Shown here piece after piece: positions 15,255 through 57,394 of a stretch of DNA of 64,000 nucleotides; within the stretch, counting starts at the first letter, position 1; the number at the start of each line of letters is the position of its first letter. The notes beneath the pieces were generated by a model. The model was not told where the DNA came from. It did no database searches and saw only the letters and a program-made list of their open reading frames with translations. The stretch covers positions 64,912 to 128,911 of the forward strand of contig CAZQHK010000005.1 in NCBI GenBank assembly GCA_964593455.1. Direction: 5' to 3'. Source of the stretch: an uncultured bacterium (GTDB lineage: Bacteria; Muiribacteriota; CAYSPT01). Both the position numbers and the translations under genes were made by a program.

Positions 15255-15258
15255 AACC

Positions 15259-16800: not shown

Positions 16801-16876
16801 CTCTGAAACACATACACAGGAAAATGTGGTATCGACCATCTGTCCGCCCTTCGCATTGATCACCCGAAACCAGAAC

Positions 16877-16905
16877 TTGACGATATATCCCGGCGCCAAT
16901 ATAAT
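16877..16905 (+). promoter_or_regulatory. sigma70-type promoter for the GH16-TolB operon
   Basis: TTGACG - 17 nt - TATAAT, about 100 nt upstream of the GTG start at 17004. Confidence 0.6.
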
Positions 16906-17003
16906 TAATCGAACCACAATAAATATCTTAGATTTTCCATAACCTTAACCTGGCTTTTGGATTTTTGGCTTTTCCGTGATGGCAGAGTGGAGATTAGCAA
17001 CCG

Positions 17004-19415: not shown

Positions 19416-19422
19416 GATTATC

Positions 19423-24707: not shown

Positions 24708-25513
24708 ATGAAATATAGGAGCCTTGCAGTAATCGTAGTTTTGGTACTTGTTGCCGGTTTTTCACCGATCCCAGCCGTTCCGGAGAAATTCTCAACCAGA
24801 ATCTTTCCGACACGCTAAAGGCAGACCTCGAGCTCAGACACCGGCTGGAGTCGAAAGACAACTTCGATTTCAATGATGCCATTAACGACGAGGATGCCTT
24901 TCACCTGGTGCGAACCCGCCTGATGCTTAACTGGAAGCATCAGGAGACCACCAGGATTTTTTTCCAAGTGCAGGACGCCCAGGCGTCAAATGTGGCCGGC
25001 GGCATCCGCGCTTTCATGACGGTACTCGGAGCCGGCTACACCTGGAACGATTCCCGCTCGACCCGCCTGGCTTTCGAGTGGGCCCACGCTTCCGGTGACG
25101 ATAACAACGCCGACAACAAACGCGAAACCTTTGACAACCTCTACCCCACCAACCACCTCCATTACGGATTCATGGACCGGGTGAGCTTGCAGAATATCGA
25201 CAACTACCGCCTGCAACTCAGCGCCAAACCGCAGTCAAACCTCAAGGTGCAGCTCGATTATCACTTTTTCTACCTGGACACGGTAAACGACTCGCTCTAC
25301 GCGGCCAACCGGGCGGCCATCCGCACCGCCGCCACGACCGGAGTGAGCGATCACGTGGGTAACGAGATCGACTTGTTGTTGAAGTATAAGGCAAACGCTA
25401 ATCTCAGTTATCTGGCCGGTTACTCCCGTTTCTCCGCCGGCGATTTTCTGAAAAATACCGGTTCCGGAGACGACGGCGATTATTTCTACATCCAGACAAC
25501 CCTGAAGCTGTAG
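24708..25513 (+). pseudogene. alginate-export (AlgE-like) family outer-membrane porin, interrupted by a frameshift between signal peptide and barrel
   Basis: RBS gagagggagag plus ATG at 24708 encode MKYRSLAVIVVLVLVAGF, but that frame stops at 24816-24818. The barrel (LKADLELRHRLESKDNFDFND ... YFYIQTTLKL) is in the -1 frame, which is open from 24719. A T5 run lies at 24758-24762. Confidence 0.55.
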
Positions 25514-43409: not shown

Positions 43410-45143
43410 CTAGAACTTCTGCGTCCACTTGCATGTCAACTTGTACTCCTCTTCTTTACCGGTCTGTTTCTTGGATTGGAAATAGTAGTTCATCATAGAC
43501 TTGGGTGATATCTTCTGAAAGACTCGCAGGTACCCGTAGGTCGTACCGCCACCGGCAGTATTGATGTCGCTGTCACGATACTTCAAGTAAGTGCTGATCA
43601 ACCATTTCTTGTTCACCTTGAAATTGATCTTGCCATAGACGGTGCTGTTCGGGTTACCCTCATCCGGAAGATACCGTTCATAATAGACCCTGAAAGAAGT
43701 GCGACTAAGCGGCTTATAGGACCAGGTCGCCCGTGAGGTCTGGTACTCGGATCCCGTTGTCAGTGAATCTGTGTCGACCTTTTTGACCTTGTACATCAGG
43801 TAACTCGACGTACTTAACCGATACTTGATCGACACATCGGACATCGACCGGTCATTGAACTTAAAGGGCGCCGTCAGGAACGGATCGTAACCTTTGTTAT
43901 TGGTGTCCTCCAATTTAATGACAATATCCGTTCGAGCCGATTTCGAACCGGGCAGGCTTCCCAGCCCGGTCTTCAATTCACCATAGAGTCCGTCACCCAG
44001 GTTTTGGAAATAACCGAATTCACCGTAGAGAGAAAGAGTGGCGAAATACTCTCCTTCAACCGCTTTTTTAAGAGCAAATTTTTTGTATCCATAGAAATCC
44101 ATACCGCTCACTTCGTTGTCGAACTGGCGGCTGTGCAGGTTGAAAAATCCCATCCCGGTCTTGGCGTAGTTGCCGCTGCGAGCGTTGATCCCTCCAAAGA
44201 CCAGGCTGTCATCGGAATGACCCTTGATATGCCCATAAGCCAGGGCTATATCCACCGTATCCTCGAAGAATCGCTGGTAGGAGATACCGTCGTTTTTCAG
44301 GATCGTGCCACCACTCCAGTCCCACTCGTCCGGAAATCCGTACATGTTCTTCAGTTGAGATTCAGACATGTACCCGATACGGGAGACGAGTTTCTGGGTT
44401 GGATCGGAGTTGACCCTGGTGGAGATACGTTTCCCATCCAGGTTGGGTTTACTGATGTTGATACTGGGTTTTCTCCCGAACCTGAAGGTCCGCCGGCCGA
44501 CCTGCCAGTCGGATTTTACCGCCCCCAGGCTCTTGAGCCTGTACACGGTCTCCATCTTCTGTTCCTTTTCTTCAGCGGGAGGGGCGGAACCGTTGATCGG
44601 CACACCCAGTTCCTGGCCGAGCGCTCCGGCTTCTTCCAACAACGAATCGAGGCCGCTTGATTTAACCGGTATGTTTACCGGAACCAGTTCGGCATCCCAG
44701 GAGGAGACGGACATATAGAGGTTTCCCAGGCTAGTGTGGTCCGACGACTCGCTTTTGGAGACATCTACCCCGGCGATAACCAGCGTTGTGAGGCCGCCGT
44801 ACTGTGTTTTCAGCTTGCTGTAGACACCGAGATTGTCACCACTGTTGATAGTCTTGTAGGTCTTGAACTGGAATTCACCCGAACGGCTTACCTGCTCGAC
44901 CAGTTTATCTTCATCGACTTCTTCAGCCTGCCGCTCATAGAACAGCTCTTCCAGTTCAGTAAAATCCGGATGTTCTTCATAAAGCAGGAGTTCCTCTTCC
45001 GAGGTGAGTTCGTCCACGATGTCTTCCACGTCCTGGTTAAAATCAACAAAAAGCTGGGCTGAAACCGGCCCGGCCAGGAAGCTGGCCATGATCACCATAA
45101 CACTCAAAATCGGTAGCCAAATCGTCCGCTTATTCATCTTCAT
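43410..45143 (-). CDS. outer-membrane beta-barrel protein, family unknown (577 aa)
   Basis: ATG at 45143 (GGAGG 8 nt upstream). Signal peptide MKMNKRTIWLPILSVMVIMASFLAGPVSA. Alternating beta-strand pattern, with terminal ...KWTQKF (C-terminal Phe). Confidence 0.7.
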   Translation of the reverse strand: MKMNKRTIWLPILSVMVIMASFLAGPVSAQLFVDFNQDVEDIVDELTSEEELLLYEEHPDFTELEELFYERQAEEVDEDKLVEQVSRSGEFQFKTYKTINSGDNLGVYSKLKTQYGGLTTLVIAGVDVSKSESSDHTSLGNLYMSVSSWDAELVPVNIPVKSSGLDSLLEEAGALGQELGVPINGSAPPAEEKEQKMETVYRLKSLGAVKSDWQVGRRTFRFGRKPSINISKPNLDGKRISTRVNSDPTQKLVSRIGYMSESQLKNMYGFPDEWDWSGGTILKNDGISYQRFFEDTVDIALAYGHIKGHSDDSLVFGGINARSGNYAKTGMGFFNLHSRQFDNEVSGMDFYGYKKFALKKAVEGEYFATLSLYGEFGYFQNLGDGLYGELKTGLGSLPGSKSARTDIVIKLEDTNNKGYDPFLTAPFKFNDRSMSDVSIKYRLSTSSYLMYKVKKVDTDSLTTGSEYQTSRATWSYKPLSRTSFRVYYERYLPDEGNPNSTVYGKINFKVNKKWLISTYLKYRDSDINTAGGGTTYGYLRVFQKISPKSMMNYYFQSKKQTGKEEEYKLTCKWTQKF

Positions 45144-45148
45144 GTCCC

Positions 45149-46360
45149 TCACCTCCCCTCTTCCACTGTGAGGAATTTTTTAATCTTATCAAACAGTTTT
45201 TCACCTATTTTCGGAACATTTATCAGGTCTTCCAGCTTCTCGTAGAGACCGTTCAGCTCCCGGTACAGGATGATGTTATTGGCGATCGAGGGTCCTATTC
45301 CCGGCACCGTAACCAGGTCTTCCGCGTAACAGGTGTTGATGTCGATCAGCTTTTTCTTTGGATCACGTAATTCTCCACCACTCCCACGACTGGCCTGCGG
45401 TACATATGGTTTGGGAACTTTCTCCTCCTGATCAATAACAGGTATTTCCTCGGTTTCTTCCTTTTCCACCACCTCATCCGGCTTTGTTTTCTCTCGAGAT
45501 TTCCAGAAATCGAAGGTGAGCGACACCCGGTGCGTGGGCGGCAAAACATCGTGGGTCATGTAAGCGTAATCCACCTGCCAACTCAGGAGATTAAAACCAA
45601 ACCCGGCGGTAAACCGTTTCGGGTTGGTGGAGTAGCCTGCCCGAACAGCAAAATGCTTGCTAACCAGGTACTCTTCTCCGATGTGAATTTCGATCTCCCG
45701 GCCGGTCTCCTGGACCGCGTCCACAGCCAGCGTGAGCCGCGGAAACGCCTGCAGAGCGATCCCTGCCCTGCTTAGTTGCGGAAGTTCCTCATTAACCACA
45801 GGTTTGTTGATATTCCTGGCCATCAAACCAAACTTTAAATGCCGGTTGACATTAACCAGGAGCCCGACATCCAGAGCGAACCCTTCCATGGTAGGCGTGC
45901 TGGTGATGCGGCTGGAGAGCTGCCTGAGGGCCACACCCATCATGTGGCCAGTTCCCATCTCCCGGGCGATGGCGAACGTGTACTCGTCCTCCTGGTAGTT
46001 ACGTCCGCCGAAATGCGACCAACTCCCACCCACGGTGGCCTTCATGTACGGGACCGGGATGGCACCGGCCAGGTAGTCATGCTTGAGCGCATCCATCCCA
46101 AAGAGTTCCGTGCGCATGGTGGTGATTTTCATGTTCTTCACCTGCGGCAGAGCCCCCGGGTTCCAGTAGACGGCCGAAGCATCGTCCGCTACCGCCACGA
46201 AAGCCCCGCCCATCCCGAGCGCCCGGGCGGAAACCATCTTGTCTTCAAACTCCGCGTGAGCCGTACCGGTGGCGGCCAGGCAGCCAACCGTCAACAGCAG
46301 CACCAGCACCCTGCATCGAATAACCCGTCCCTTGCCATTGTCTCGTCTGTAGTTATTCAT
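45149..46360 (-). CDS. PorV/FadL-like outer-membrane barrel fused to a C-terminal ComEA-type helix-hairpin-helix domain
   Basis: Signal peptide, then the SARALGMGGAFVAVADDASAVYWNPGAL signature and a ~280-aa barrel. An acidic linker follows. The C-terminus is DINTCYAEDLVTVPGIGPSIANNIILYRELNGLYEKLEDLINVPKIGEKLFDKIKKFL (two HhH motifs). Confidence 0.7.
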   Translation of the reverse strand: MNNYRRDNGKGRVIRCRVLVLLLTVGCLAATGTAHAEFEDKMVSARALGMGGAFVAVADDASAVYWNPGALPQVKNMKITTMRTELFGMDALKHDYLAGAIPVPYMKATVGGSWSHFGGRNYQEDEYTFAIAREMGTGHMMGVALRQLSSRITSTPTMEGFALDVGLLVNVNRHLKFGLMARNINKPVVNEELPQLSRAGIALQAFPRLTLAVDAVQETGREIEIHIGEEYLVSKHFAVRAGYSTNPKRFTAGFGFNLLSWQVDYAYMTHDVLPPTHRVSLTFDFWKSREKTKPDEVVEKEETEEIPVIDQEEKVPKPYVPQASRGSGGELRDPKKKLIDINTCYAEDLVTVPGIGPSIANNIILYRELNGLYEKLEDLINVPKIGEKLFDKIKKFLTVEEGR

Positions 46361-46373
46361 AACGTATCAGTCC

Positions 46374-49300
46374 TCACTCGTACATGTGCCTGGACACAAT
46401 AACGGAGGTCTCCGCTTTGGCCAGCCGGTAGAGCTCATCCTCGGCGTAGATGCTCATCACATAGATGCCCGTCGGCACCACCTGACCGTGGTCATCTATT
46501 CCGTTCCAGGTGTACTGCACCAATCCTTCCGGCACATTGGTAGCTTTCTCGGCCAGCGTCCGCACGAGCCGGCCTTTCACGTCGTAGACCCGCACCCACA
46601 ACTCGTCCGCGTCGTTGGTAATTCCAAAAGTGAGATACGATTCAGGTTTCAATGAACCCTCGGCGGGGGAGAAAGGACTGGGGCTGACCGAAACATCGTA
46701 GATCTCCATTCTTCGGCCGGGATCGGTATCGCCCACCAGCATATAGATCCCGGGCCGGGTGATCATGGCCGTCACCGTGTTGTCTCCAGAAGCGACATCC
46801 CCGCCGATCTTTTCCCAGTAGGCATCGTCGGAAGCGTTTTTAGCCCCGACGCTGCCTCCGCCCCGTTTACTGAAAAAGCCGACCTTCCTCTCCCGTTTGA
46901 GCGACCTCAATCGCGATCGGCGACGGCGCGCCCACTTCGGTCTGACCGTACCGCCCGGTGCAACCGGGGAGGAAAGATCCTGGTGCCAGTGATAGATAGC
47001 CAGGTTCTTTTCTTCTATCCCGGCAGCTTCTATCAGGTCATCATCGAATCCGAACACCAGGGTCACCGGCCGGGTGAAGGTCAAGGTGTGCGGTTTGATG
47101 TCGAGCGCCACCATGGACGGCACCATGTATTGATTGTCAACCAGGCTGTCCGTCGTGGGTAGATCATTAGCATCCATCTGTTCGATCGTGATTCGGAACG
47201 ATCCCTTGATAACCCCGGCCGCGATTTGAATCTGTGTGCCCTGAGGACCTGACACCACCCCGCCTTGATCGTCGATGATCTCCGATGAGCCGGTACCGAT
47301 GACCACCTCGCCATCGAACTGAGCCGGCACCGTTTCATTGTCGTCATCGTCTATCACCAGGCAGTTCTGCAGACTCAAGGGATAGGTCCCCGAAGGCAGC
47401 GGTACGCCTGCGTTGGGGTTCTTGACCTTGAAGTAGATGACCGCCAGCGGACCATCGCCCGTGACCTCATCCTTGACTCCGGTCACCGAGAACTGGATGA
47501 GCCCTTTCTCGGCCAGGTTTATCTCGTTGAAGCCCAGCCCCATCAGGGAACCTACGGCAATCTGCTCGCCCTCACGGTTTTCGTCCGAATCCTGCAGGTC
47601 CAGATAGGTGGTGTCATACGTTATTTCGAAACCGGCCCCGACCAGGTCCCGGGCGTTGACAATCATGATATCCACATAGAAATACTCGCCTTCGGAGACA
47701 CCTTTTTTCCTGGGGACCACCATCATCTTCATGGTGTTATCCTCGATAGCAATGGTGTACGGAATGTCAGACGGCGTCAGCGCCGGCAGGGTCTTCGTGT
47801 TGACGATATCGGAAGCCTGCAGGTAATACTCGATCCCGCTAAGCGTAACGTCTTCCTGGGGTATCCTCACTTCGTACAGGTTCGTCCCGGCCAACAGGTT
47901 CATGTTCAAAGTCGTATAGCTGTCCCCGCTGAGAGCTTCCCGGTAGTAGAGCCGGACAAAATCGATGGTGCGGTTGCTGAGGATCTTGGCGCGGATTATC
48001 AGCGGATCGCCGATATAGGCAGTACTCACGATAGTGTGAGAAAACTCAAGTGTACTCGGGTTACCTTCGTAAAGGCTGTTCTGATGGCCAGGCGTACCGT
48101 TTTGAGCATGAGGTTCGCTTTCAGCCCAGTTGTAGGCGTCGATTACCGGATCGTTCTTATCCAGCATGTCCGGGTCCTTCTTTTCCAAGGAAAGTCCGTT
48201 GGCATCGGCTCCCCATGAATCGAGATAGGTGACACTGGTCTTGGTTACCGTATCGGAACTGTTGAGACTGATGGTTCCGGACGTGTTGTCGAGCGTGAAG
48301 GTGGGCACATCCACCGCCTGGAAATTCTCGGTGGGATGATCTCCCCAGGTACCGTTTCCGTCACCGTAGACCGACTCGAACGTGTCGAGTTCCTTGGCCA
48401 GCAGCAGGTGCTCACCGACGGCGATGGTCGTACTATCGGGAATGGAGATAGCTTTGTCGGCAATAGTAAGGTTCCAACCGGTGAGATCAACGGAAGAGGC
48501 GCTGCGATTGTACAGTTCGATATACTCCAGACCGCTGTCACCGACCGGGTTATACATGATCTCGTTCAAGACCACCGACGGCAGGCTGATAACGACAATT
48601 TCCTTGGCGTCACTCTTGAGCGAGCCGCCGGGCGTGGTGGCGCTAACCACGAACCGGCCGGAGTTGGAGTCCCGTGCCTGGGCGCTGAGCGAGCCATAGG
48701 TAGCGTACCCGGTACCGGACGAGGACCAGGTAAAGCCGCCGTCCATGGAAACTTCCGCCGACACCGAATCGGTATTGACGTCGATCTGTACCGACGAGGA
48801 AGTGACAATAGAGCCGAAGATGTCAACTACCTGGACCCCTATATCCACGGAAACGCTTACAAACGCGCTGACCGTGCCCGAAGGAGTTATCTCCAGAGCA
48901 TAAGGTTCACCGGGAGCGTAATTTTTCTTGCCCGGCGTGGGAGACGTTACCATCTGCCAATCGGCGGCGGCATTGGTGTCGGTGAAGAGCCGGTCACGAG
49001 CCAGCGAGTTGCCTTCTCCCAGCCCCGCCACTGAAGCGCATGACTCCTCATCGGCGCTTCCCACCCAGCCGCCGGCCGCGATTATCGTGGTCATGTCGGC
49101 GGCCTCGGTCTCGGTCAGAGCATCGCCGTCCATGTTGGCGTAGCAAACGGCGTCGATCAGGTTGTCCTTATGATCGTAGATCACCACCTGGTCGTCGGAA
49201 GTCACCATTCCGGACCGGTCGCTGAAGATGTTGATGACACCATCATCCGATTCCGTATCATCGGTGTCCTCGGTGTCGAAAACGAGAAGAATGAACTCGC

Positions 49301-52300
49301 CGGTCCTGACAATGGTACCGTTGGTGATTGACTTGACAGTGGAATCTATATAGAAACTATATCCCGATATCTCTACGCCGGCGCCGCCGTTGAGATCGTC
49401 GTAACAGTAGACCTCAATCCAGTCGTTAGCCTGCCCGCCCCCGCCCTTGCTCGGGGCGATCTCGGAAATGAGCAGACCCACATTGGGTTTCGGACCGGAG
49501 AGATTGCTCTTCCCCGGAGTGGGTACGGCGGTAACCAGCCAGTCGGCTTTAGAGGCGGTGTCGTCGGGGATACTGGTTTCCTCGTTCGTTATCCGGGCCA
49601 CGCTTTCACCGCCCCCGACCACCGTGGAATCCAGGCAGTCACTTTCCGCGACTTCCGCACCCGCTTTGGTCCAATGGCCGGCGGTGACCAGTGTTTTCAA
49701 GTATTCCTCGCTCAGGTTGGTGAAGGAGCCGTTCTGGTTGGCCCAGACCACCATGTCCACCACGTCACCGGCGGGGGTGTAAATGGCCACCATTTCATCG
49801 GACGAAGTCAAGCCGGTATCGGCGGTGTAGCAATCGATGAAATCACCGGTCAGAGCGCTTTCGTCGGTGCCGCTCGAGTTGTTGTACTGCAAGAGGAGAT
49901 ACTCACCGGTCTTGATGGTGGTGTTGCCGAAAGTTTTGTCGATCGTGGTCTCGTTTTTAGGCTTGATCGTATAGCCCGCCAGGTTGAACCCGTTACCGCT
50001 CAGACCATCGTCCTGGCAGTAGATCTCGATCCAGTCGCTATCGAACCCGCCGCCGCCGCCGTCGAAAGCCACCTCGTTGATTTTCAGTACCGGTTCAGGT
50101 ATCTGGTCCACTATCTGGATGCTCTGGCTTGTCCCGGTATTACCGGAATCCTCGATCTGGATAGTGGTGGTCTGCCCGGTGGCGCCCGTGAGGGTCACCG
50201 GGACGGTAAGCACGCCATCGGTGAACCCGCTGGCACTTTCGGGAGCCACAGAAACGGATCCGCTTGACGAGGAGATCACGATGGTTCCCACGTAAGTGTC
50301 CATGAGGGTGTTGTCTTCGTTTCGGGCGGTAGCCGTGATATCGAAGGCCGTACCGCTCACCGCGTAAGCGGGAGAATCAACATCGAAATGGTGTACCGTG
50401 GGTGGATCGCCGTTATTGGCGCCGGGAGTCGAAGTCGACCGCGGCGTCCAGTCTTCCTTGGAGTTGTTATCCGTGGGCACGCTGTCGCGGGCCATCGACC
50501 AACCGGTCTTCATGGTCGTCGAGAGGAAACAGTCGTTGGGGTCGGCATCGGTAGGCTCGAAATCGGTCCAGGCCTTGTTGGCCGGAGTATAGGCGTCGGC
50601 GCTATCGAGCAGGGTCTGCACGTTACCGAGTTCCGCCGACGGCAGTGCGCCGTCGGAGAAAGCCACACAGTCCAGGAGATTCCCCACCGCGTCGTAGATA
50701 GCCAGGGTTTCATCGGTCGAGGTTATGGAAGTCCAGGCGTCAGAAGAGATGTTCAGTATCCCGTCGCCGCCGGCCTCGGTTTCGTCCGTATCGGCAGTGT
50801 CGGTCGTAAAAACAAGGAACTCACCGGTCTTGATAGTGCAGTCCTGGTTCGGTGAACCGTCGTTGGTAGAGTCGCCGAAAATCTTGTTTTTGCTGGTCCC
50901 GGAACCGTCCAGGTTGGAAATATAGGCGCCCTTGATATTGACCCCGTTACCGTTGTTCCCGTCATCGACACAATAAATCTCCACCCAGTCTTTATCGCCG
51001 GTTTTATTCTTCACCAGCACTTCGTTGATCATCAACCGGGCGGTCACCGGGGCCGGGGTAAGCGCTCCCGGGTTGGGGCTGTCCAGCACCATCCAGTCGG
51101 CTTTGGCGTTGGTGTCGGTGTTCAGGTTATCACGGGCGATGGACTGGCTACTCGACACCGTGGTCGAATCGATACAGTCGCTCTCGGCGGCGCTGCCGCC
51201 GGCGATGGTCCAGTTGCCCGAAGGGACCAGCAGATCCACCTGTGTCTGTTCAGTGGTGAACGTTCCGTCCTGGTTCGACCAGCACACTCCGTCGATGTAG
51301 TTGCCCAGGGCGTCAACGAATACCTGCTGTTCATCGGTGGAGGTCACGCTGCTCTGAGCTTCGGTGAAAATCTCGACCGTGTTGTCCAGGCTGCCGCCGG
51401 TGGCGGCGGTTTCGTCGGTCCCCGCCTGGTCGTAGTAAAGAATGAGAAACTCACCGGTCTTGATGGTGCAATCCTGGTCGGCGACCCCATCGTTGTCCGA
51501 ATCGCCGAGCACTTTCTTGTGCGTGGTGTTGGTGCTGTCGAGATCGGTGATCGAGCAGTTTTTCAAGTTAACGCCGTTACCGCTGTTGTTGTCGTCCACG
51601 CAGTAGAATTCAACCCAGTCCGCGCTGCCGGCAACCATTACCTCGGTAACTTTGATGGTGGCGCTCAAAGCAGTGGCCGAAGCTGTTCCGGGTGTGGGAT
51701 TGACATACCTGACCCAGTCGGCTTTAGCGCCGGTATCAGTGGAGCTGGCGTCACGGGCAGTGGACTCATCGTTGCCGATGGTGCTTGAATCGACACAATC
51801 ACTCTCCACTACCGCTCCCCCCGCCCTGGTCCAGTGCCCGGCAGTACAGAGCCCGTCCAGATAGGTCTCGTTTAGGTTCGAGAACGAACCGCTCTGGTTG
51901 GCCCAGACGATCATGTCCAAAACCGCTTCGGAGGAGTCGTACAGAACGATCACATCGTCGGTGCCGGAAGGACCGGACTTATCGGTGTAGATATCTACGG
52001 CGTCACCGGTAAGCTGTGTCTCATCGGTGCCGTCGACATAGTGGAGGATGAGATACTCGCCGGTCTTGACGGTACAGTCGCCGATAGTCTTATTGATCCC
52101 GGTCTCGTTGCTGGCCCGGATAGTGTACCCGCTCAGGTTGAACCCGGAACCGCTCACTCCGTCGTCAACACAGTAGATCTCGACCCAATCCTCGGTAAAC
52201 CCGCCGCCGCCGCCGTTAAAAGCCACTTCGTTGATCCGGAAAACGGGAGCCGGAAGTACGGTCACCACGTTGATGGTGCCGCTGGTGCCAGATTCACCAC

Positions 52301-53885
52301 CGCCGGAATCAGCCACCTGGATGGTGGTCTGGTTCCCGGCCCCGGTCAGGGTGACCGACAGGGTAAGCTCGCCGGAGGTAAAATCATTACCGGTAGAATC
52401 GGCGGGAGCGATGCTTACCGATCCGTTGGAGGAAGTCAGGTTGACTATTCCGGCATAGCTTACCAGCGTCTCGCCGCTCTGATCTTTGGCGCTGATAGTA
52501 ATATCGAAAGCCGAGCCGCTGACGGCATAACTTGGAGCAGTTACCGTGAAACTCGTGAGCGCGGCCGGTTCGGGATTAACCGCTCCCTGGGTCGGAGCGC
52601 TTATCCAGTGCCATTCAGCGGCGGAATGAGCGGTGTCGGTGGAGTTTTCGTCCCGGCCAATACTGTAATTTGAAGGAAAACTCTTGGCGTTGACACAGTC
52701 GCTTTCCGCCACCGTCCCGCCGGCCTTGGTCCACTCGCCCGCATCGCAGAACACATCGAGATCAGCGTCATCCAGGCTGCTGCCGAAACTACCGCTCAGG
52801 TCCGCCCAGGCCACCACGTCTTCCACGGTCCCGATAGGATCGTAGAACATGACCATGGCGTCGGTACTGGTGAGCCCTTCCCCTGCGAAGAGCATGAGCA
52901 CGCCGTCGGCGCCGGCGGTGGTCTCGTCGGTCCCTTCCTCGTCGATCAACACGATATATTCACCGGTGCTGATGGTTGTTCCGGCGGCAATAGATTTGAT
53001 TATATTCCCGGTATTCTTGTAGCGGAAACTGCATCCCTGGATATCGATATCGCTGCCGCCCGCCTGGCAGTAGAGCTCGATCCAGTCCGGAGAGTTCTTG
53101 AACTGGACTTCGTTGATGACGATGACCGCGGCCGGGTCCAGGGCCGAGGCGGTAGCCGCTCCCGGGCTTTGGCCGCTCATGAGACTCCAGTCGGCCTTGG
53201 CGTTGGTATCGGTCCCACCGGCCGCCCTTTGCAGGGACTCGCCGGCCCCAAGACCGCTCGAGCCAACACTCTCGGTGTCATTGGTAGGTACTCCGGCACC
53301 GGCTGTGCCTGTCCATTGCGAGGCATTGACAACCTCATCGAAGGCCGTTTGCTGGGCCGCTGCCCAGCTCGCGTCACCGTTGGCAAAACTGATTGCGTCC
53401 TGGATGACGGCCGAGTCGTTCTTGAGAATAATGACATTGTCCGATCCTGTCAATCCGCTATCGGCCGAATAGAAATCACGATACCCGTTCCCGTTCGTGT
53501 CGGCACCGGTCTCGTCGGGCGTGACCCCGTCATTGATATGCAGAACTATAAACTCGTCGGCGGCCATGGTGTACGCCGGGAAGGTTTTTAGCGATGAGCT
53601 TCTCTCCAGCATCTCCCAGTTTTCGATTGACTGGGTTCCGGGTCCCGTATTATAGATCTCTATCCAGTCAGCGGAACTGCTCTCAGCCGGAGCCACCTCG
53701 TTAACGAGGACGGCACCCAGGGCTACTGCCGGCAGAAACGATACCAGCAGCGACACCGACACGACCGTAAACAGGAACCGGGGCAGACGTTTGAGTGGTT
53801 TCAATCGGCTCGGCGACTCAAACAATCGACGCTCTATAACAGTATGGTTTCCCTTTTTATCTTTCGATTCGGATAACGTTGTCAT
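46374..53885 (-). CDS. giant (2503 aa) secreted protein: ~8 lamin-tail domains, Big-like Ig domains, cohesin-like domain, T9SS-type (FlgD-Ig-like) C-terminal domain
   Basis: I prefer the ATG at 53885 (AGGAGG 8 nt upstream). LTD signatures: LVNEVAP..ADWIEIYN, VINEVQF..PDWIELYC, RINEVAF..EDWVEIYC, KVTEVMV..ADWVEFYC, MINEVLV..KDWVEIYC, KINEVAF..SDWIEIYC, LISEIAP..NDWIEVYC and VLNEIMY..LEYIELYN. Cohesin-like: YFYVDIMIVNARDLVGAGFEITYD. CTD: VRVYDVKGRLVRTL...YTWNGIDDHGQVVPTGIYVM. Confidence 0.85.
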   Translation of the reverse strand: MTTLSESKDKKGNHTVIERRLFESPSRLKPLKRLPRFLFTVVSVSLLVSFLPAVALGAVLVNEVAPAESSSADWIEIYNTGPGTQSIENWEMLERSSSLKTFPAYTMAADEFIVLHINDGVTPDETGADTNGNGYRDFYSADSGLTGSDNVIILKNDSAVIQDAISFANGDASWAAAQQTAFDEVVNASQWTGTAGAGVPTNDTESVGSSGLGAGESLQRAAGGTDTNAKADWSLMSGQSPGAATASALDPAAVIVINEVQFKNSPDWIELYCQAGGSDIDIQGCSFRYKNTGNIIKSIAAGTTISTGEYIVLIDEEGTDETTAGADGVLMLFAGEGLTSTDAMVMFYDPIGTVEDVVAWADLSGSFGSSLDDADLDVFCDAGEWTKAGGTVAESDCVNAKSFPSNYSIGRDENSTDTAHSAAEWHWISAPTQGAVNPEPAALTSFTVTAPSYAVSGSAFDITISAKDQSGETLVSYAGIVNLTSSNGSVSIAPADSTGNDFTSGELTLSVTLTGAGNQTTIQVADSGGGESGTSGTINVVTVLPAPVFRINEVAFNGGGGGFTEDWVEIYCVDDGVSGSGFNLSGYTIRASNETGINKTIGDCTVKTGEYLILHYVDGTDETQLTGDAVDIYTDKSGPSGTDDVIVLYDSSEAVLDMIVWANQSGSFSNLNETYLDGLCTAGHWTRAGGAVVESDCVDSSTIGNDESTARDASSTDTGAKADWVRYVNPTPGTASATALSATIKVTEVMVAGSADWVEFYCVDDNNSGNGVNLKNCSITDLDSTNTTHKKVLGDSDNDGVADQDCTIKTGEFLILYYDQAGTDETAATGGSLDNTVEIFTEAQSSVTSTDEQQVFVDALGNYIDGVCWSNQDGTFTTEQTQVDLLVPSGNWTIAGGSAAESDCIDSTTVSSSQSIARDNLNTDTNAKADWMVLDSPNPGALTPAPVTARLMINEVLVKNKTGDKDWVEIYCVDDGNNGNGVNIKGAYISNLDGSGTSKNKIFGDSTNDGSPNQDCTIKTGEFLVFTTDTADTDETEAGGDGILNISSDAWTSITSTDETLAIYDAVGNLLDCVAFSDGALPSAELGNVQTLLDSADAYTPANKAWTDFEPTDADPNDCFLSTTMKTGWSMARDSVPTDNNSKEDWTPRSTSTPGANNGDPPTVHHFDVDSPAYAVSGTAFDITATARNEDNTLMDTYVGTIVISSSSGSVSVAPESASGFTDGVLTVPVTLTGATGQTTTIQIEDSGNTGTSQSIQIVDQIPEPVLKINEVAFDGGGGGFDSDWIEIYCQDDGLSGNGFNLAGYTIKPKNETTIDKTFGNTTIKTGEYLLLQYNNSSGTDESALTGDFIDCYTADTGLTSSDEMVAIYTPAGDVVDMVVWANQNGSFTNLSEEYLKTLVTAGHWTKAGAEVAESDCLDSTVVGGGESVARITNEETSIPDDTASKADWLVTAVPTPGKSNLSGPKPNVGLLISEIAPSKGGGGQANDWIEVYCYDDLNGGAGVEISGYSFYIDSTVKSITNGTIVRTGEFILLVFDTEDTDDTESDDGVINIFSDRSGMVTSDDQVVIYDHKDNLIDAVCYANMDGDALTETEAADMTTIIAAGGWVGSADEESCASVAGLGEGNSLARDRLFTDTNAAADWQMVTSPTPGKKNYAPGEPYALEITPSGTVSAFVSVSVDIGVQVVDIFGSIVTSSSVQIDVNTDSVSAEVSMDGGFTWSSSGTGYATYGSLSAQARDSNSGRFVVSATTPGGSLKSDAKEIVVISLPSVVLNEIMYNPVGDSGLEYIELYNRSASSVDLTGWNLTIADKAISIPDSTTIAVGEHLLLAKELDTFESVYGDGNGTWGDHPTENFQAVDVPTFTLDNTSGTISLNSSDTVTKTSVTYLDSWGADANGLSLEKKDPDMLDKNDPVIDAYNWAESEPHAQNGTPGHQNSLYEGNPSTLEFSHTIVSTAYIGDPLIIRAKILSNRTIDFVRLYYREALSGDSYTTLNMNLLAGTNLYEVRIPQEDVTLSGIEYYLQASDIVNTKTLPALTPSDIPYTIAIEDNTMKMMVVPRKKGVSEGEYFYVDIMIVNARDLVGAGFEITYDTTYLDLQDSDENREGEQIAVGSLMGLGFNEINLAEKGLIQFSVTGVKDEVTGDGPLAVIYFKVKNPNAGVPLPSGTYPLSLQNCLVIDDDDNETVPAQFDGEVVIGTGSSEIIDDQGGVVSGPQGTQIQIAAGVIKGSFRITIEQMDANDLPTTDSLVDNQYMVPSMVALDIKPHTLTFTRPVTLVFGFDDDLIEAAGIEEKNLAIYHWHQDLSSPVAPGGTVRPKWARRRRSRLRSLKRERKVGFFSKRGGGSVGAKNASDDAYWEKIGGDVASGDNTVTAMITRPGIYMLVGDTDPGRRMEIYDVSVSPSPFSPAEGSLKPESYLTFGITNDADELWVRVYDVKGRLVRTLAEKATNVPEGLVQYTWNGIDDHGQVVPTGIYVMSIYAEDELYRLAKAETSVIVSRHMYE

Positions 53886-53900
53886 AACCATATCCTCCTA

Positions 53901-53930
53901 ACTTTCCACGCCTCTTGTTTGAGGGTGGGA
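53901..53930 (+). repeat. family-A repeat core
   Basis: actttccacgcctcttgtttgagggtggga. The adjacent cctcc (53895-53899) is the rc of the RBS of the giant LTD gene. Confidence 0.75.
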
Positions 53931-54027
53931 CCACAGGTTGCCGCTACGACACCCTGATTACACTCACGTTTGGCGAATTGAACAAACCTCCGCCCGGGTT
54001 TTCTTTCCACTCTTACTTTCCAATTTA

Positions 54028-54051
54028 ACTTTCCACGCCTCTCGCTTGAGG
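54028..54051 (+). repeat. family-A repeat core
   Basis: actttccacgcctctcgcttgagg. Partial ctttcca units lie at 54003-54026. Confidence 0.75.
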
Positions 54052-54058
54052 CCACAAA

Positions 54059-56191
54059 TTACAGTTCGGCGGACAGGTTGAACGAACCGATCCGCGCCGT
54101 GTAGTTATCATCGAAACTGGCGTTATTCCGCATACCTTCAGACCGGAAATTGAGCGAGAACTCCATACCCGGCCGCAGGCGATACCGGACCTCGATCCGG
54201 CTTTTTTCCTTTGTTTTGAACTGCTCCCCCCTGTTGCTCTCAACATCGATCATGGCCAGCGCCCGCAGCCGCTGCGTGAGCCGCAGGTCGATTCCGGCAC
54301 CGATGGATTCGCTGGGCGCAGTTGCCGCAGCCCACCCTCTCCGGCTGTATTCCGCAGACAACTTGGCCCATGAGTAGGGTTTCAGGGTCATCTTGATCGA
54401 CGAACTATTGGCCACGCTTTGTTGACTCGAACGGTTGAGTTTACCGAGCAGGCTCAGGCTGCGCCGGGGTTTCCATCTGAGATCGAGCCCCCATCGTTGA
54501 GAGCCGCCCGCAGAGTTCCCCATGCCCAGAGTCTTGACGAACTCCCGCCCGACACTGGCAGTGGTTACCAGTCCCGGTGAGAAGTGATAACTTACCGCTA
54601 TGTCCGCTGCTTTTTTTACGATGTTCTCGGGATCTTTAAAAATCTCTTCGGCAGAATATGAAAGCTCGTTCTTAACCGTAATCTTCGAGGTTGGCCGGTA
54701 CCGAAGCGACAGCTTGGTCCAATCGGAACTGGACGAGATTAATCCGTTTATTTCGTCTTTCCGCGCAGTTGTTTCCAGGTGTCCCGTCACTTTCTTCCAC
54801 AGCTTGCTGTCAACGGTCAATCCAATATTGTTGGAGATCCTCTCATCGTTCACACCATGATCACTCTCAAAGCGGTCGAGCTTCGTCTCGGCGCTGTATC
54901 GCGGCTGTACGTACTTCACCCTGATATTCCCTCCCTTTGACGCCTGGCCCGGTTCGAGATCATCACCCCGGCGGCGCCTGGTATGCGCCCGCCCGAAAAC
55001 GGTGAGAGGCCGGGCCACCTGCCAGGCGAATGAACTTACGATATCCTTTTCGAGACCATCGTTGTCGGCAAATGAAAGACTGCCCTCAAAGGGTCCATCG
55101 GGGACATAGTCCAGGATGGCAAACCGCTTGCTGCTCAAACAGTCCTGGTCATTGTTTCCTCCCAGGAACACGAAATCGTCACCGATACGCTTGGTCCCGA
55201 GCCTGAGAATCACCGAGTCCAGGTCGATCTCGGCCTCCACGCGGGCAGCCTCATCTCTCAAGGCCGCATCGGTCACCAGCGAACTGAAATCATTCTCGCT
55301 GAGCGCTACTTCGCTCTGAATAGTTATCCGGTCACTCAAATAAAGATCATGCCTGAGGTCGATCACCGTCTGGGAAGACGATGATTCGGGCGCGAACGTG
55401 GCGCTACCTTCCCGGCCGCCGTCTTTTTTCCGAAGCACCGTCAAACCGAGATTGCCTCCGGGACCCCCGAGCTCCACTAAACCGTCGAATCCAATCAGAG
55501 TCCGGGTTAATTCATCAGGGTCATCCGGTATATACTCGTAGAACACCTGAACCCTGACACCACCGGGAACCTCATCGTTGAACGACAGCGTTCCGCTATC
55601 ATAATCAAAGGTGTAATCACGGTTACGTTTGAGTGTTTCGCCGTCCAGTTTAACGATCTCACTCCCGGACACGATATCCGCGTGCAGTAAGTGGAACGGT
55701 CCTTTGGTAAAATTCCCTTCCAGCGTTTCCCGGCTTGAAAGCCCGGTCATTCTGCTGAACATAATTCCCACTTCGTGATCACCAACCCGGCTTCTCACCC
55801 GGCCGCCTTTAACCTTGCGGCTATGAATCAGGAACGAAGAACCATCATAATCGACATCGATATCTCCCACTTCGGCGACGTAGTTCTCACCTTCCGCCTG
55901 CAGGTAGACATGCTCCACCCGGTCCGAACGAGTATCGTCGAACCTGACATCCGCCTGGATATTGTCGCTGACATAACCGAGCATGCTGAACCGCAGGCTT
56001 TGGTCGAATTCTTCAGGCTTTTGGAGCTCCGGAATATCCCGTTCGGCCTGGATTTGATTGCCGATGACTTTGAATGATTTCACGTTGAAGATCTTATTGG
56101 CACGAACCTGAAGACGGCCGTCACTGTCCTGCCAGGCACAAGCCAGAGCGGGAACCAGCAGAACCGCCAAAACCGCGAGCGGTACCGTCAT
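54059..56191 (-). CDS. large outer-membrane beta-barrel protein, family unknown (710 aa)
   Basis: ATG at 56191 (GAGGA 7 nt upstream). Signal peptide MTVPLAVLAVLLVPALACA. Amphipathic beta-strand periodicity throughout. Confidence 0.7.
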   Translation of the reverse strand: MTVPLAVLAVLLVPALACAWQDSDGRLQVRANKIFNVKSFKVIGNQIQAERDIPELQKPEEFDQSLRFSMLGYVSDNIQADVRFDDTRSDRVEHVYLQAEGENYVAEVGDIDVDYDGSSFLIHSRKVKGGRVRSRVGDHEVGIMFSRMTGLSSRETLEGNFTKGPFHLLHADIVSGSEIVKLDGETLKRNRDYTFDYDSGTLSFNDEVPGGVRVQVFYEYIPDDPDELTRTLIGFDGLVELGGPGGNLGLTVLRKKDGGREGSATFAPESSSSQTVIDLRHDLYLSDRITIQSEVALSENDFSSLVTDAALRDEAARVEAEIDLDSVILRLGTKRIGDDFVFLGGNNDQDCLSSKRFAILDYVPDGPFEGSLSFADNDGLEKDIVSSFAWQVARPLTVFGRAHTRRRRGDDLEPGQASKGGNIRVKYVQPRYSAETKLDRFESDHGVNDERISNNIGLTVDSKLWKKVTGHLETTARKDEINGLISSSSDWTKLSLRYRPTSKITVKNELSYSAEEIFKDPENIVKKAADIAVSYHFSPGLVTTASVGREFVKTLGMGNSAGGSQRWGLDLRWKPRRSLSLLGKLNRSSQQSVANSSSIKMTLKPYSWAKLSAEYSRRGWAAATAPSESIGAGIDLRLTQRLRALAMIDVESNRGEQFKTKEKSRIEVRYRLRPGMEFSLNFRSEGMRNNASFDDNYTARIGSFNLSAEL

Positions 56192-56498: not shown

Positions 56499-56551
56499 GA
56501 AAACAAAGAAAACGGCCCGGCTTGCAGGACACAAACCGGACCGCTGTTTTT
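56499..56551 (-). terminator. rho-independent terminator (works on both strands) after the small barrel gene
   Basis: The reverse strand reads cggtccgg-15 nt-ccgggccg followed by TTTTCTTTGTTTT. The plus strand has a T5 run after the same stem. Confidence 0.55.
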
Positions 56552-56592: not shown

Positions 56593-57381
56593 TCAGAATT
56601 TTTTAAGCAGGTAAACCTTGATCCCTGAATATTTAATTTCGGCGCTGTCGTCACCCGATTCGGCTTCCAGGTCGAGACTCCGGTAACCCACAATTATTTT
56701 GAGGTCATCACGGATATGGTAGTTGAGCCGAAAATCGAGATCGGAAACCTCTCCCCGGTCGTTTCCTGAGTCGATTTCCATATATCCGAACGATCCCGAC
56801 AAGGAAACTTTCTCGCTCATTTTTGTCTTGCCGGAAAAACCGATAACCGGTACCGGGATTTCGAAAGACTCTGTTCTGGTCTGTGTACCACCGAGAGTGG
56901 TACCGGTAATGGAGGCTTCAACATCAAGGTATCTCAAACCCAGCATCAGTGACAGTTTGTTTTTTTCAGTTTTACTTAAAATACGGTGATAGTTCAGATC
57001 CAACAGGCCGGTTTCTACCGACGAGGTAAGGGTGGAGTTGACCAGGTACTGCACACCCTTGTAATTGATGGTGCTAGTGATCTGTTTTCTCCCGGTGTTT
57101 TCAATACTGGCGTAGCCGCCGGTCAACTTGTATCGGCCGCCCGGACGGTAGGAAAAAGCCAGACTGGGCGCGGTATCCTCCTCAATCCCGAGCGTGTTCT
57201 CGAGATTAACGACGTTACCGGTGAGAACTCCCTCGGTCACCTGTACCGAACCTTCGATCTCCTGGAACCAGGCTCCTGCAGCTAAAGAAAACCGGCTGCC
57301 GCTTCCGGCCAAAACCGCGCCATTCATCGAAAAGAGTAACAAACCGATTAGCGTAAAACAAACCACATTGCCTATCTTCAC
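56593..57381 (-). CDS. small outer-membrane beta-barrel protein (262 aa)
   Basis: I prefer the GTG at 57381 (GGAGG 7 nt upstream). Signal peptide MKIGNVVCFTLIGLLLFSMNGAVLA. Terminal ...VYLLKKF. Confidence 0.7.
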   Translation of the reverse strand: MKIGNVVCFTLIGLLLFSMNGAVLAGSGSRFSLAAGAWFQEIEGSVQVTEGVLTGNVVNLENTLGIEEDTAPSLAFSYRPGGRYKLTGGYASIENTGRKQITSTINYKGVQYLVNSTLTSSVETGLLDLNYHRILSKTEKNKLSLMLGLRYLDVEASITGTTLGGTQTRTESFEIPVPVIGFSGKTKMSEKVSLSGSFGYMEIDSGNDRGEVSDLDFRLNYHIRDDLKIIVGYRSLDLEAESGDDSAEIKYSGIKVYLLKKF

Positions 57382-57394
57382 AACCAAACCTCCT

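What the first reader, a model, noticed from the sequence alone, without database searches (positions are those of the whole stretch)
43410..56191. Four-gene outer-membrane cluster (710-aa barrel, LTD giant, barrel-ComEA fusion, 577-aa barrel): hypothesis of a surface DNA/polymer capture and import module
All four genes are on the minus strand with gaps of 167, 13 and 5 nt. A terminator (56499-56551) and a ~300-nt leader lie upstream, and about 700 nt of repeat-bearing non-coding DNA lies downstream, so this is probably one transcription unit. The content is a T9SS-style cargo with many LTDs, a PorV-like barrel carrying a periplasmic ComEA domain, and two large barrels of unknown family. LTDs are associated with extracellular nucleases, and ComEA is the periplasmic DNA receptor of competence systems. 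A role in binding extracellular DNA (or another anionic polymer) and passing it across the outer membrane is therefore conceivable, but it is speculative.
Basis: inference. Interest (0 to 1): 0.7.

Follow-up and report, generated by a model that had tools for sequence, protein, structure and literature searches.

The report
T9SS-like surface-protein export gene cluster
Four co-oriented genes in an uncultured flagellated bacterium most likely export and anchor a giant repeat protein on the cell surface using parts related to the type IX secretion system; one part carries an unusual DNA-receptor-like domain, and nothing I could test shows that it handles DNA.

Summary
Four minus-strand genes lie at the stated coordinates with gaps of 167, 13 and 5 nt, behind an upstream terminator.

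- A is 710 aa.
- B is 2503-2505 aa, with 8 LTDs, a cohesin domain, a ZU5-like domain and a C-terminal FlgD_ig/CHU_C-type sorting domain.
- C is 403 aa, a PorV/PorQ-family barrel fused to a ComEA-type HhH domain.
- D is 577 aa.

The order A-B-C is conserved in at least 8 other lineages, including Wallbacteria, UBP16 and ADurb.Bin243. In those lineages C has no HhH domain and D is absent. The N-terminal ~300 residues of A are homologous to a module repeated in genuine SprA, the T9SS translocon, but A is not an SprA. D is an orphan, with 5 clusters among 1.84 billion representatives. Every D homologue with readable context directly follows a PorV::HhH fusion.

The core is therefore a T9SS-type cargo, carrier and SprA-module outer-membrane set. 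HhH and D are a co-varying add-on.

DNA capture or import is not supported:
- no competence genes are nearby;
- the HhH hairpins are degenerate in half of the fusions;
- LTD has no established DNA-binding role.

It is not excluded either. I rate this a new variant of a known kind, of moderate to high interest.

The parts
54059..56191 (-). Gene A: 710-aa secreted protein, a probable outer-membrane beta-rich protein. The ORF can be extended to 56224, giving 721 aa.
   Evidence: ORF; called as 710 aa. It has a signal peptide and no Pfam family. Homologues of 709-743 aa head the same triad in other lineages. Period-2 amphipathicity has z = 5. The AF2 model was unusable at pLDDT 28.
55280..56161 (-). 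SprA-type module of A (aa 11-304). The core motif is at aa 150-227, nt 55511-55744.
   Evidence: hhalign of the A family against an alignment of genuine SprA proteins gives A 150-304 to SprA 549-722 at 98% probability and A 11-218 to SprA 124-316 at 90%. Those SprA proteins score 412-861 bits on TIGR04189. A itself scores 20.5 bits against a cut-off of 200.
53892..54058 (-). A-B spacer of 167 nt, holding two exact copies of GAGGCGTGGAAAGTTA at 53899-53914 and 54026-54041.
   Evidence: 2 matches against 0.05 expected, and no other copy in the window. No unusual RNA fold (z = 0.02).
46374..53891 (-). Gene B: giant secreted repeat protein of 2503-2505 aa, the presumed cargo.
   Evidence: Orthologues follow A in every triad locus.
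48207..53747 (-). Array of eight lamin-tail domains in B (aa 49-1895), interspersed with Ig-like stretches.
   Evidence: Pfam LTD E 1.9e-59 with 8 stretches. Envelopes from jackhmmer. Coordinates.
47304..47720 (-). Cohesin domain of B (aa 2058-2196).
   Evidence: Pfam Cohesin E 5.3e-8, 33.6 bits against a cut-off of 24.1, on the isolated piece.
47055..47285 (-). ZU5-like domain of B (aa 2203-2279), followed by a basic stretch RRRRSRLRSLKRERK.
   Evidence: Pfam ZU5 E 0.0025, below the cut-off, in the window. In the L005 orthologue it scores 31.3 bits against a cut-off of 21.
46440..46637 (-). C-terminal beta-sandwich sorting domain of B (aa 2419-2484).
   Evidence: FlgD_ig scores 46.7 bits against a cut-off of 27. 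Por_Secre_tail (15.2 bits) and CHU_C (13.7 bits) are below their cut-offs. The homologous end of the L005 orthologue passes CHU_C with 35.9 bits against 27. There is also a weak match to the C-terminus of PorU.
45473..46240 (-). PorV/PorQ-family barrel of gene C (aa 41-296). The whole gene C is 45149-46360.
   Evidence: NCBIfam PorV_fam scores 110 bits against a cut-off of 90 and covers the whole profile. There is a weak match to the solved PorV structure 6H3I_F. The barrel ends in ...SLTFDFW, exactly where the unfused relatives end.
45167..45355 (-). ComEA-type helix-hairpin-helix domain of C (aa 336-398), joined to the barrel by an acidic linker (aa 297-335, nt 45356-45472).
   Evidence: HHH_3 E 1.8e-20. 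TIGR00426 scores 51.9 bits against a cut-off of 53.1. The best PDB matches are ComEA 8DFK and 8DSS. The extension occurs in only four lineages.
43410..45143 (-). Gene D: 577-aa orphan outer-membrane protein. It has a signal peptide, a conserved acidic helical N-terminal region (aa 30-95, net charge -19, nt 44859-45056) and a C-terminal beta-meander (aa 298-577, nt 43413-44252).
   Evidence: No family match. Only 5 representative clusters among 1.84 billion. AF2 and Foldseek results. Charge. Every homologue with readable context directly follows a PorV::HhH fusion.
56511..56545 (-). Intrinsic-terminator-like hairpin upstream of A. It closes the preceding gene and leaves about 320 nt of leader.
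   Evidence: 16 pairs, 8 of them G-C, followed by a T-rich tail. Sequence.

Best explanation
The cluster is a dedicated outer-membrane export and display module built from T9SS-type parts.

Proposed mechanism:
- B is a giant surface protein with eight LTDs, Ig-like stretches, a cohesin domain and a ZU5-like domain. It crosses the inner membrane by its signal peptide and is recognised through its C-terminal beta-sandwich sorting domain.
- C is a PorV/PorQ-family 14-strand barrel and acts as the cognate carrier or anchor. It binds that sorting domain with its surface loops, as PorV and SprF-type carriers do in Bacteroidota.
- A carries one copy of the module that builds the N-terminal half of the SprA translocon. 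It is the partner that lets B pass the outer membrane or holds it there.
- In one branch of the family, including this window, C has a periplasmic ComEA-type HhH domain on a flexible acidic linker and is always followed by D. I infer that the HhH domain and D work together at the inner face of the outer membrane, most simply by the HhH domain docking onto D's conserved, very acidic N-terminal helices.

Shown: gene order and its conservation, domain identities, the A-SprA module homology, and the HhH-D co-occurrence.

Inferred: the carrier-cargo pairing, the role of A, the periplasmic location of HhH (from the topology of even-stranded outer-membrane barrels), the HhH-D contact, and surface display of B.
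For: - The order A, then an LTD giant, then a PorV-like gene recurs in the L005/L016, L012, L018, L019, L020, L021 and L022 loci, and A followed by the LTD giant in L014 and L015 before those contigs end. Named sources are Wallbacteria, UBP16 UBA6123 and ADurb.Bin243; the rest are unnamed MAGs. All four genes recur in the 62% relative.
- The C-terminus of B passes FlgD_ig, and its orthologue passes CHU_C, Pfam's type IX signal domain.
- C passes the PorV/PorQ family cut-off.
- The N-terminal ~300 aa of A match genuine SprA at 98% and 90% hhalign probability.
- In another lineage (L031) an A-like protein of 1136 aa lies in one cluster with PorU (559 bits against a cut-off of 420) and a PorV-family gene (226 bits).
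- The carrier and translocon mechanism is established for Bacteroidota (PMC10994853).
- D follows a PorV::HhH fusion in 4 of 4 lineages with readable context and is absent from every locus where C lacks HhH.
- Other PorV-family barrels carry periplasmic TPR extensions, so protein-binding add-ons occur in this family.
- The region after D's signal peptide has net charge -19 over 66 residues and is conserved.
Against: - No T9SS motor or hub gene (GldKLMN/PorKLMN), PorU or full-length SprA is in the 64-kb window. The rest of the genome could not be searched.
- A misses the SprA cut-off by a wide margin (20.5 against 200 bits), and its C-terminal 400 residues match nothing.
- The sorting domain of B fails both T9SS tail models in this window (TIGR04183 at 13 bits against 23, CHU_C at 13.7 against 27).
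- In Bacteroidota, type-B tails use PorP/SprF carriers and not PorV.
- No usable structure was obtained for A.
- The organism is flagellated and its nearest named relatives lie outside the FCB superphylum, where T9SS is known.
- The HhH-D contact rests on co-occurrence alone. The C-barrel tree is compatible with a single gain or a single loss, so it may reflect one evolutionary event.
- In L065 the C::HhH-D pair stands without B or A nearby, so the pair may have a job independent of B.
Confidence: 0.5

Rival explanations
1. First reader's hypothesis. The module captures extracellular DNA or another polyanion on B's LTD array and passes it through an outer-membrane barrel (D or A) to the periplasmic ComEA domain of C, which pulls it in.
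For: - The HhH domain is ComEA-type (HHH_3 E 1.8e-20; 8DFK and 8DSS at E ~1e-14) and should be periplasmic.
- In this window the first hairpin PGIGPS is intact.
- HhH always comes with the extra barrel D, and the pair can stand alone in L065.
- In five WOR-3 genomes a canonical membrane-anchored comEA directly follows sprA, which hints at some link between T9SS outer-membrane parts and ComEA-type proteins.
- LTDs occur in some extracellular nucleases (PMC6085458).
Against: - A-B-C is conserved without HhH and without D in most lineages.
- No comEC, comF, pilQ, pilin or nuclease genes are in the window.
- The second GIG hairpin is missing in all four fusions and the first is lost in L062 and L065. 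The basic pair after the first hairpin in WOR-3 ComEA proteins (KK, RK or GR) is an invariant NN in the fusions.
- B has an export-type sorting domain and no catalytic domain.
- The LTD of ExeM is dispensable for DNA degradation and its role is unknown.
- No outer-membrane barrel of this size is known to import DNA (my own knowledge).
Confidence: 0.12
2. Ordinary cargo of a full T9SS encoded elsewhere. B is one of many T9SS substrates. C is its private PorQ/SprF-like anchor. A and D are accessory outer-membrane proteins with no translocon role, and the SprA-like module in A is only a shared small domain.
For: - Cargo genes next to private carrier genes are normal in Bacteroidota (PMC10994853).
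- The motif shared by A and SprA also gives weak hits to phage distal-tail and tail-tube proteins, so it may be a generic fold.
- In L031 an A-like protein co-occurs with PorU and PorV, that is, inside a larger T9SS context.
Against: - hhalign covers 150-180 columns, including flanking strand regions, and not only the ~40-residue motif.
- A is the first gene of the triad in every lineage seen.
- No full-size SprA locus came from Wallbacteria-type genomes in the one genome scan, although its patterns were tuned to A and the scan was not exhaustive.
Confidence: 0.25
3. No functional unit. These are four neighbouring envelope genes that happen to be co-oriented.
For: The 167-nt A-B spacer could hold its own promoter. 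The 264-aa gene upstream is separate. There are no expression data.
Against: The order is kept across lineages whose proteins are only 20-40% identical. The B-C and C-D gaps are 13 and 5 nt.
Confidence: 0.04

Closest known systems
T9SS substrate-carrier pairs (PorV with type-A CTD cargo; SprF/PorP-type carriers encoded beside type-B cargo such as SprB) in Bacteroidota
   Same: A large secreted protein ending in a small beta-sandwich sorting domain is encoded next to a FadL-like 14-strand outer-membrane barrel of the PorV/PorQ family. The orthologue's tail passes the CHU_C (type IX signal) model.
   Different: - The host is a flagellated lineage related to Wallbacteria, not a member of the Bacteroidota.
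- The tail in this window passes only FlgD_ig.
- The carrier is PorV/PorQ-like and not PorP/SprF-like, and it fails the PorV, PorQ and PorV2 equivalog cut-offs.
- It carries a ComEA-type HhH domain.
- No motor, hub or sortase genes are nearby.
SprA/Sov, the 36-strand T9SS translocon (about 2300-2400 aa)
   Same: The N-terminal ~300 residues of A are homologous to a module that occurs at least twice in the N-terminal half of genuine SprA. A sits beside a PorV-family gene and a tailed cargo gene.
   Different: A is 710 aa, under a third of SprA. It scores 20.5 bits against the 200-bit cut-off. Its C-terminal 400 residues match no part of SprA. No structure is available.
ComEA, the periplasmic or membrane-anchored DNA receptor of natural competence
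   Same: A two-hairpin HHH_3 domain, closest by sequence to solved ComEA proteins (8DFK, 8DSS), predicted to lie in the periplasm.
   Different: - It is fused to the C-terminus of an outer-membrane barrel instead of an inner-membrane anchor.
- It is below the TIGR01259 cut-off.
- The second GIG hairpin is absent.
- Asn-Asn replaces the basic pair after the first hairpin.
- No ComEC or ComF gene is in the neighbourhood.
LTD-bearing bacterial exoproteins, for example the ExeM/NucH nucleases
   Same: Secreted proteins with lamin-tail domains.
   Different: B has eight LTDs and no nuclease or phosphoesterase domain. It combines them with cohesin, ZU5-like and sorting domains, so it looks like an adhesin or scaffold and not an enzyme.

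Membership tests
PorV/PorQ family (NCBIfam NF033709) | Whole-protein score at or above the curated cut-off, with full-length coverage of the barrel profile | tested here: met
   110 bits against a cut-off of 90; residues 41-285 cover profile positions 9-326 of 326.
PorV proper / PorQ proper / PorV2 (NF033710, NF033711, NF052325) | Equivalog cut-off score | tested here: not met
   48 against 250, 39 against 220 and 61 against 325 bits. C belongs to the family but to no named subfamily.
ComEA (TIGR01259; TIGR00426 HhH repeat region) | Score at or above the cut-off | tested here: not met
   TIGR01259 scores 55.8 against 152.35. TIGR00426 scores 51.9 against 53.1, just under. Pfam HHH_3 is clearly passed at 73.3 against 27.
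ComEA | Two canonical G-h-G hairpins with flanking basic residues, as seen in ordinary ComEA proteins | tested here: inconclusive
   In the window the first hairpin is PGIGPS (intact) and the second is PKIGEK. L062 and L065 have lost both. NN replaces the KK, RK or GR found in WOR-3 ComEA proteins. DNA binding itself cannot be tested here.
ComEA / competence system | Genomic company of comEC, comF, a pilQ secretin or pilins | tested here: not met
   None among the window's genes. The rest of the genome was not searchable.
SprA/Sov translocon (TIGR04189) | Score at or above 200 bits; a protein of about 2300 aa | tested here: not met
   A scores 20.5 bits over 38 residues and is 710 aa. Only an N-terminal module is shared.
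SprA/Sov translocon | A large barrel with a lateral opening that docks PorV | not testable with these tools
T9SS cargo, type A CTD (TIGR04183 / PF18962) | Score at or above the cut-off at the extreme C-terminus | tested here: not met
   TIGR04183 scores 13 against 23 and PF18962 scores 15.2 against 27.
T9SS cargo, type B CTD (CHU_C, PF13585) | Score at or above the cut-off at the extreme C-terminus | tested here: inconclusive
   13.7 against 27 in the window. The homologous C-terminus of the L005 orthologue passes at 35.9 against 27. The window domain passes FlgD_ig at 46.7 against 27.
Type IX secretion system as a whole | Presence of the GldLM/PorLM motor, the GldKN/PorKN hub and the PorU sortase in the genome | not testable with these tools
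   None is in the window.
Lamin tail domain (PF00932) | Score at or above the cut-off | tested here: met
   199 bits against 34.3, with eight copies.
BamA/TamA, LptD, FadL and other named outer-membrane barrel families (for A and D) | Any family-level match | tested here: not met
   No Pfam or NCBIfam family matches D, and A has only sub-threshold hits. A-family profiles find nothing in the PDB. D against the PorV, A and SprA profiles gives probabilities below 6%. Foldseek on the D model returns only generic barrels at TM 0.1-0.25.

The most novel reading that the evidence does not exclude
The PorV-like::ComEA fusion and its obligate partner D form a secretin-independent device that handles nucleic acid at the outer membrane. 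D, or the laterally gated C barrel, would be the conduit. The tethered HhH domain would be the periplasmic ratchet. B's LTD array would be the surface capture net. A would be a miniature stand-alone relative of the SprA translocon that installs B.
Probability: 0.08. Interest if true: 0.9.

Novelty: new variant of a known kind. Interest (0 to 1): 0.6.

Why it matters
T9SS is regarded as a system of the FCB superphylum, with a translocon of about 2300 aa. This cluster and its relatives show a compact, conserved set in Wallbacteria-type and related candidate lineages: an SprA-module protein of about 710 aa, a tailed giant cargo, and a PorV-family barrel.

If A proves to be a working short translocon, it would give a minimal model for how SprA-type pores and carriers move proteins, and a clue to how SprA arose by duplication of a module.

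The PorV::ComEA fusion with its strictly co-occurring orphan partner D is a clean and testable case of a DNA-receptor fold recruited to the inner face of the outer membrane. It acts either as a protein dock or as a real nucleic-acid handle. The sprA-comEA operon in WOR-3 suggests the link is not a one-off.

Tried and rejected
- Word-index homologue searches with A alone and with a 4-sequence A alignment returned only A itself and the 62% relative. The second search was wasted.
- AF2 on D reached pLDDT 42.6, and only its C-terminal strands are credible. Foldseek on that model gave generic barrels at TM 0.1-0.25, so no family can be assigned.
- PDB sequence searches with A-family profiles found nothing.
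- A metagenome scan with D-derived patterns found no relatives. A scan with C-derived patterns found only distant PorV-likes, with no HhH, D, A or LTD nearby.
- Rfam found no RNA family in the window. The A-B spacer has no unusual fold.
- The 'repeat-bearing' downstream spacer has only chance-level 12-mers.
- An attempt to extend beyond the window through a 155-aa ORF failed because no such product is on record.
- BamA, TamA and LptD identity for A and D is rejected for lack of any match.
- I considered whether the net charge of the HhH domain argues against DNA binding. I dropped this because I ran no comparison with canonical ComEA.
- The crude amphipathicity score separates A from soluble proteins but barely flags the known barrel C (z = 1.1), so it is weak evidence.

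Full report
**Observation.**
- A: 54059-56191, 710 aa (an upstream ATG at 56224 would give 721 aa).
- B: 46374-53891, 2505 aa.
- C: 45149-46360, 403 aa.
- D: 43410-45143, 577 aa (a GTG start at 45152 would give 580 aa).

Gene calls on public contigs of the same organism give 710, 2503, 403 and 577 aa, with the same gaps of 167-173, 13 and 5 nt. A strong terminator-like hairpin at 56545-56511 on the minus strand closes the preceding gene and leaves about 320 nt of leader. Downstream, 715 nt separate D from a convergent flgE gene. The repeats there are only two-copy 12-mers, which is what chance gives. No Rfam family is present in the window.

**Domain content.**
- B has eight lamin-tail domains (Pfam E 1.9e-59; envelopes aa 49-1895). 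It also has a cohesin domain (aa 2058-2196, 33.6 bits), a ZU5-like stretch, a basic run, and a C-terminal beta-sandwich at aa 2419-2484. That last domain passes FlgD_ig (46.7 bits against a cut-off of 27) and scores below the cut-offs of Por_Secre_tail, TIGR04183 and CHU_C. No catalytic domain was found in B.
- C passes NCBIfam's PorV/PorQ family model (110 against 90 bits, full profile coverage) but none of the PorV, PorQ or PorV2 equivalogs. After the last barrel strand (...SLTFDFW) come a 40-residue acidic linker and an HHH_3 domain (E 1.8e-20). The nearest solved relatives of that domain are ComEA proteins 8DFK and 8DSS. Both ends of an even-stranded outer-membrane barrel face the periplasm (established knowledge), so the HhH domain should be periplasmic.
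- A and D match no Pfam or NCBIfam family above threshold.

**Synteny.**
- The closest relative has proteins 52-63% identical and keeps all four genes, together with the upstream HEAT-repeat and cyclase-like genes.
- More distant lineages include Candidatus Wallbacteria, UBP16 UBA6123, ADurb.Bin243 and several unnamed MAGs. They keep A (709-743 aa, 20-25% identical), then an LTD protein of about 1360-1400 aa, then a PorV-like barrel of about 280-290 aa.
- In those lineages C ends with the barrel, with no HhH, and no D homologue is present.
- The tail of their B orthologue passes CHU_C, Pfam's type IX secretion signal domain (35.9 against 27 bits), and also passes ZU5.
- The conserved core is therefore A-B-C.

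**What A is.**
- A has a signal peptide, a strong excess of period-2 amphipathic segments (z = 5 against shuffles, a crude measure) and a conserved alternating C-terminal strand.
- Its only family hint was a 38-residue sub-threshold hit to SprA.
- The genome scan seeded with A-family motifs also returned proteins of 1840-2280 aa from WOR-3, Latescibacterota and other phyla. The three of these that I scanned are genuine SprA by NCBIfam (412-861 bits against 200).
- Profile-profile comparison of the 11-member A family with an alignment of those SprA proteins aligns A 150-304 with SprA 549-722 (98% probability, 152 columns) and A 11-218 with SprA 124-316 (90%, 181 columns).
- Intermediate-sized proteins of 870-1420 aa from Margulisiibacteriota, WOR-1, Armatimonadota, Vulcanimicrobiota and Krumholzibacteriia share the same module one to several times.
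- A therefore carries one copy of a module that is repeated in the N-terminal half of the T9SS translocon. Its C-terminal 400 residues match nothing.
- In locus L031 an A-like protein of 1136 aa sits in one cluster with PorU (559 bits against 420), a PorV-family gene (226 bits) and a BamA-like gene. This is an independent genomic tie between A-like proteins and T9SS parts.
- A is not an SprA. It fails the cut-off by a factor of ten and is a third of the size.

**What D is, and the HhH-D link.**
- D is nearly an orphan. An exhaustive HMMER pass over 1.84 billion representatives found five clusters, including its own.
- The family shares a signal peptide, a conserved very acidic helical stretch (aa 30-95, net charge -19) and a C-terminal half ending in an aromatic residue.
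- AF2 gave a low-confidence model (pLDDT 42.6) in which residues 298-576 form 13 long antiparallel strands at pLDDT 50-84. Foldseek matched only generic outer-membrane barrels at very low TM-scores.
- D shows no profile similarity to the PorV, A or SprA families.
- Every D homologue whose context could be read lies directly downstream of a PorV-like::HHH_3 fusion. These are the window, the 62% relative, L062-L064 (an LTD giant of 2129 aa, then a 368-aa fusion, then a 549-aa D) and L065 (a 396-aa fusion, then a 524-aa D, with no LTD giant or A nearby).
- The HhH extension and D therefore co-vary perfectly. They are retained together down to 36-40% identity in C and 27-31% identity in D.
- A neighbour-joining tree of the C barrels places the fusions basal to, or as sister of, the unfused triad clade. 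Bootstrap support for a single fusion clade is 38 of 100. One gain or one loss would explain the pattern.

**Does the HhH domain look like a DNA binder?**
- In the window and its close relative the first hairpin is canonical (PGIGPS), but the second reads PKIGEK or PRIGEK.
- In L062 and L065 both hairpins have lost their glycines (PGITKS and PNFDTK; PSINRT and PKLTPE).
- In all four fusions the pair after the first hairpin is an invariant Asn-Asn. The ordinary membrane-anchored ComEA proteins of WOR-3 have KK, RK or GR there, and they also have two intact GIG hairpins.
- This pattern fits a domain drifting towards another ligand, but it does not prove loss of DNA binding.
- Other PorV-family barrels carry periplasmic TPR extensions, so periplasmic protein-binding add-ons have precedent in this family.

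**Surroundings.** The window encodes an acyltransferase/acyl-activating fusion, a TetR regulator, five large proteins with little or no family assignment, an ECF sigma factor, a Psr-type molybdoenzyme set, MsrB/A, cyclases, RmuC, an S9 peptidase, FlgE, a small OMP-like gene and a HEAT-repeat protein. It has no comEC, comF, pilQ or pilin gene, no nuclease, and no T9SS motor, hub or sortase gene.

**Interpretation.** The best-supported reading is a T9SS-type cargo-carrier module. B is exported and displayed through its C-terminal sorting domain, with C as its private carrier or anchor and A as an SprA-module outer-membrane partner. This follows the mechanism shown for PorV, SprA and alternative carriers in Flavobacterium (PMC10994853). 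The HhH domain and D are a later, or ancestrally optional, periplasm-side add-on. I favour a direct HhH-to-acidic-N-terminus contact between C and D, but this is inference from co-occurrence and location only.

The fold is ComEA-like, the pair C::HhH-D can stand alone, and WOR-3 genomes place a canonical comEA two bases after sprA. It lacks any positive test, and it conflicts with the conservation pattern and the hairpin decay. The link between LTD and DNA is also weak. In ExeM the LTD is dispensable for DNA degradation, and its role is described as not elucidated (PMC6085458).

**Novelty and score.** I found no paper linking Wallbacteria with type IX secretion, or LTD proteins with PorV in a relevant way. 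The ComEA-plus-T9SS search returned nine titles, none of which looked relevant; I did not read them. The parts belong to known kinds (PorV/PorQ family, LTD, HHH_3, SprA-type module). The following do not appear to have been described:
- the compact A-B-C arrangement outside the FCB superphylum;
- the 710-aa SprA-module protein family;
- the PorV::ComEA fusion;
- its obligate orphan partner D.

I rate it a new variant of a known kind, with interest 0.6.

Noticed in passing
L038 8354-14333; also L040, L042, L043, L044 (WOR-3 genomes): In five WOR-3 loci a genuine sprA (1840-1890 aa; L038 scores 412 bits on TIGR04189) is followed within 2 nt, or with an overlap, by a small membrane-anchored canonical comEA-like gene of 129-157 aa (TIGR01259 E 5e-21, both GIG hairpins intact). 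SprA loci from the other phyla in the set lack it.
   Followed up: partly
L031 1639-14732: An unnamed MAG encodes, in one cluster, PorU (559 bits), a PorV-family barrel (226 bits), several small ORFs, an A-like/SprA-module protein of 1136 aa and a BamA-like protein. It looks like a compact T9SS outer-membrane set with a half-size SprA-like protein.
   Followed up: partly
window 53899-53914 and 54026-54041 (minus strand): An exact 16-nt direct repeat GAGGCGTGGAAAGTTA occurs twice, 127 nt apart, in the A-B spacer. The second copy abuts B's ribosome-binding site. It is unique in the window (0.05 expected) and is found only in contigs of the same organism.
   Followed up: partly
window 56593-57387 (minus strand): A 264-aa ORF between the HEAT-repeat gene and the terminator has weak outer-membrane-barrel hits (ShlB E 0.011, OMP_b-brl E 0.15) and ends in ...LLKKF. 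No counterpart was detected in the loci of the 62% relative, where the HEAT-to-A gap is only 276 nt.
   Followed up: partly
window 5582-21249 (plus strand): Five consecutive large ORFs (1915, 1297, 513, 803 and 631 aa) have essentially no Pfam assignment; only a PD40 repeat appears in the 803-aa one. They have no counterpart in the fetched loci.
   Followed up: no
window 47055-47285 and the following ~300 nt (B aa 2203-2345): A ZU5-like domain is followed by a strongly basic run RRRRSRLRSLKRERK just before B's sorting domain. ZU5 clearly passes in the Wallbacteria-type orthologues. This may be a processing site.
   Followed up: no
proteins P0029, P0052, P0080, P0109, P0012: Several PorV/PorQ-family barrels from metagenomes are 487-699 aa long. 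Four of them carry TPR domains (P0012 has no Pfam annotation), so fusions of other domains to this barrel family recur.
   Followed up: no
window 24908-25513 (plus strand): A 201-aa ORF matches only the C-terminal half of the Alginate_exp barrel profile (positions 233-387 of 395). It may be a truncated gene, a gene with a misplaced start, or a frameshifted one.
   Followed up: no
precomputed Pfam on B orthologues: Each LTD in B and its relatives is followed by a stretch that newer Pfam calls TP_1001_2nd (PF26342). The local Pfam scan did not report this family for B. The PorV-like relatives often hit UPF0164 (PF03687).
   Followed up: no
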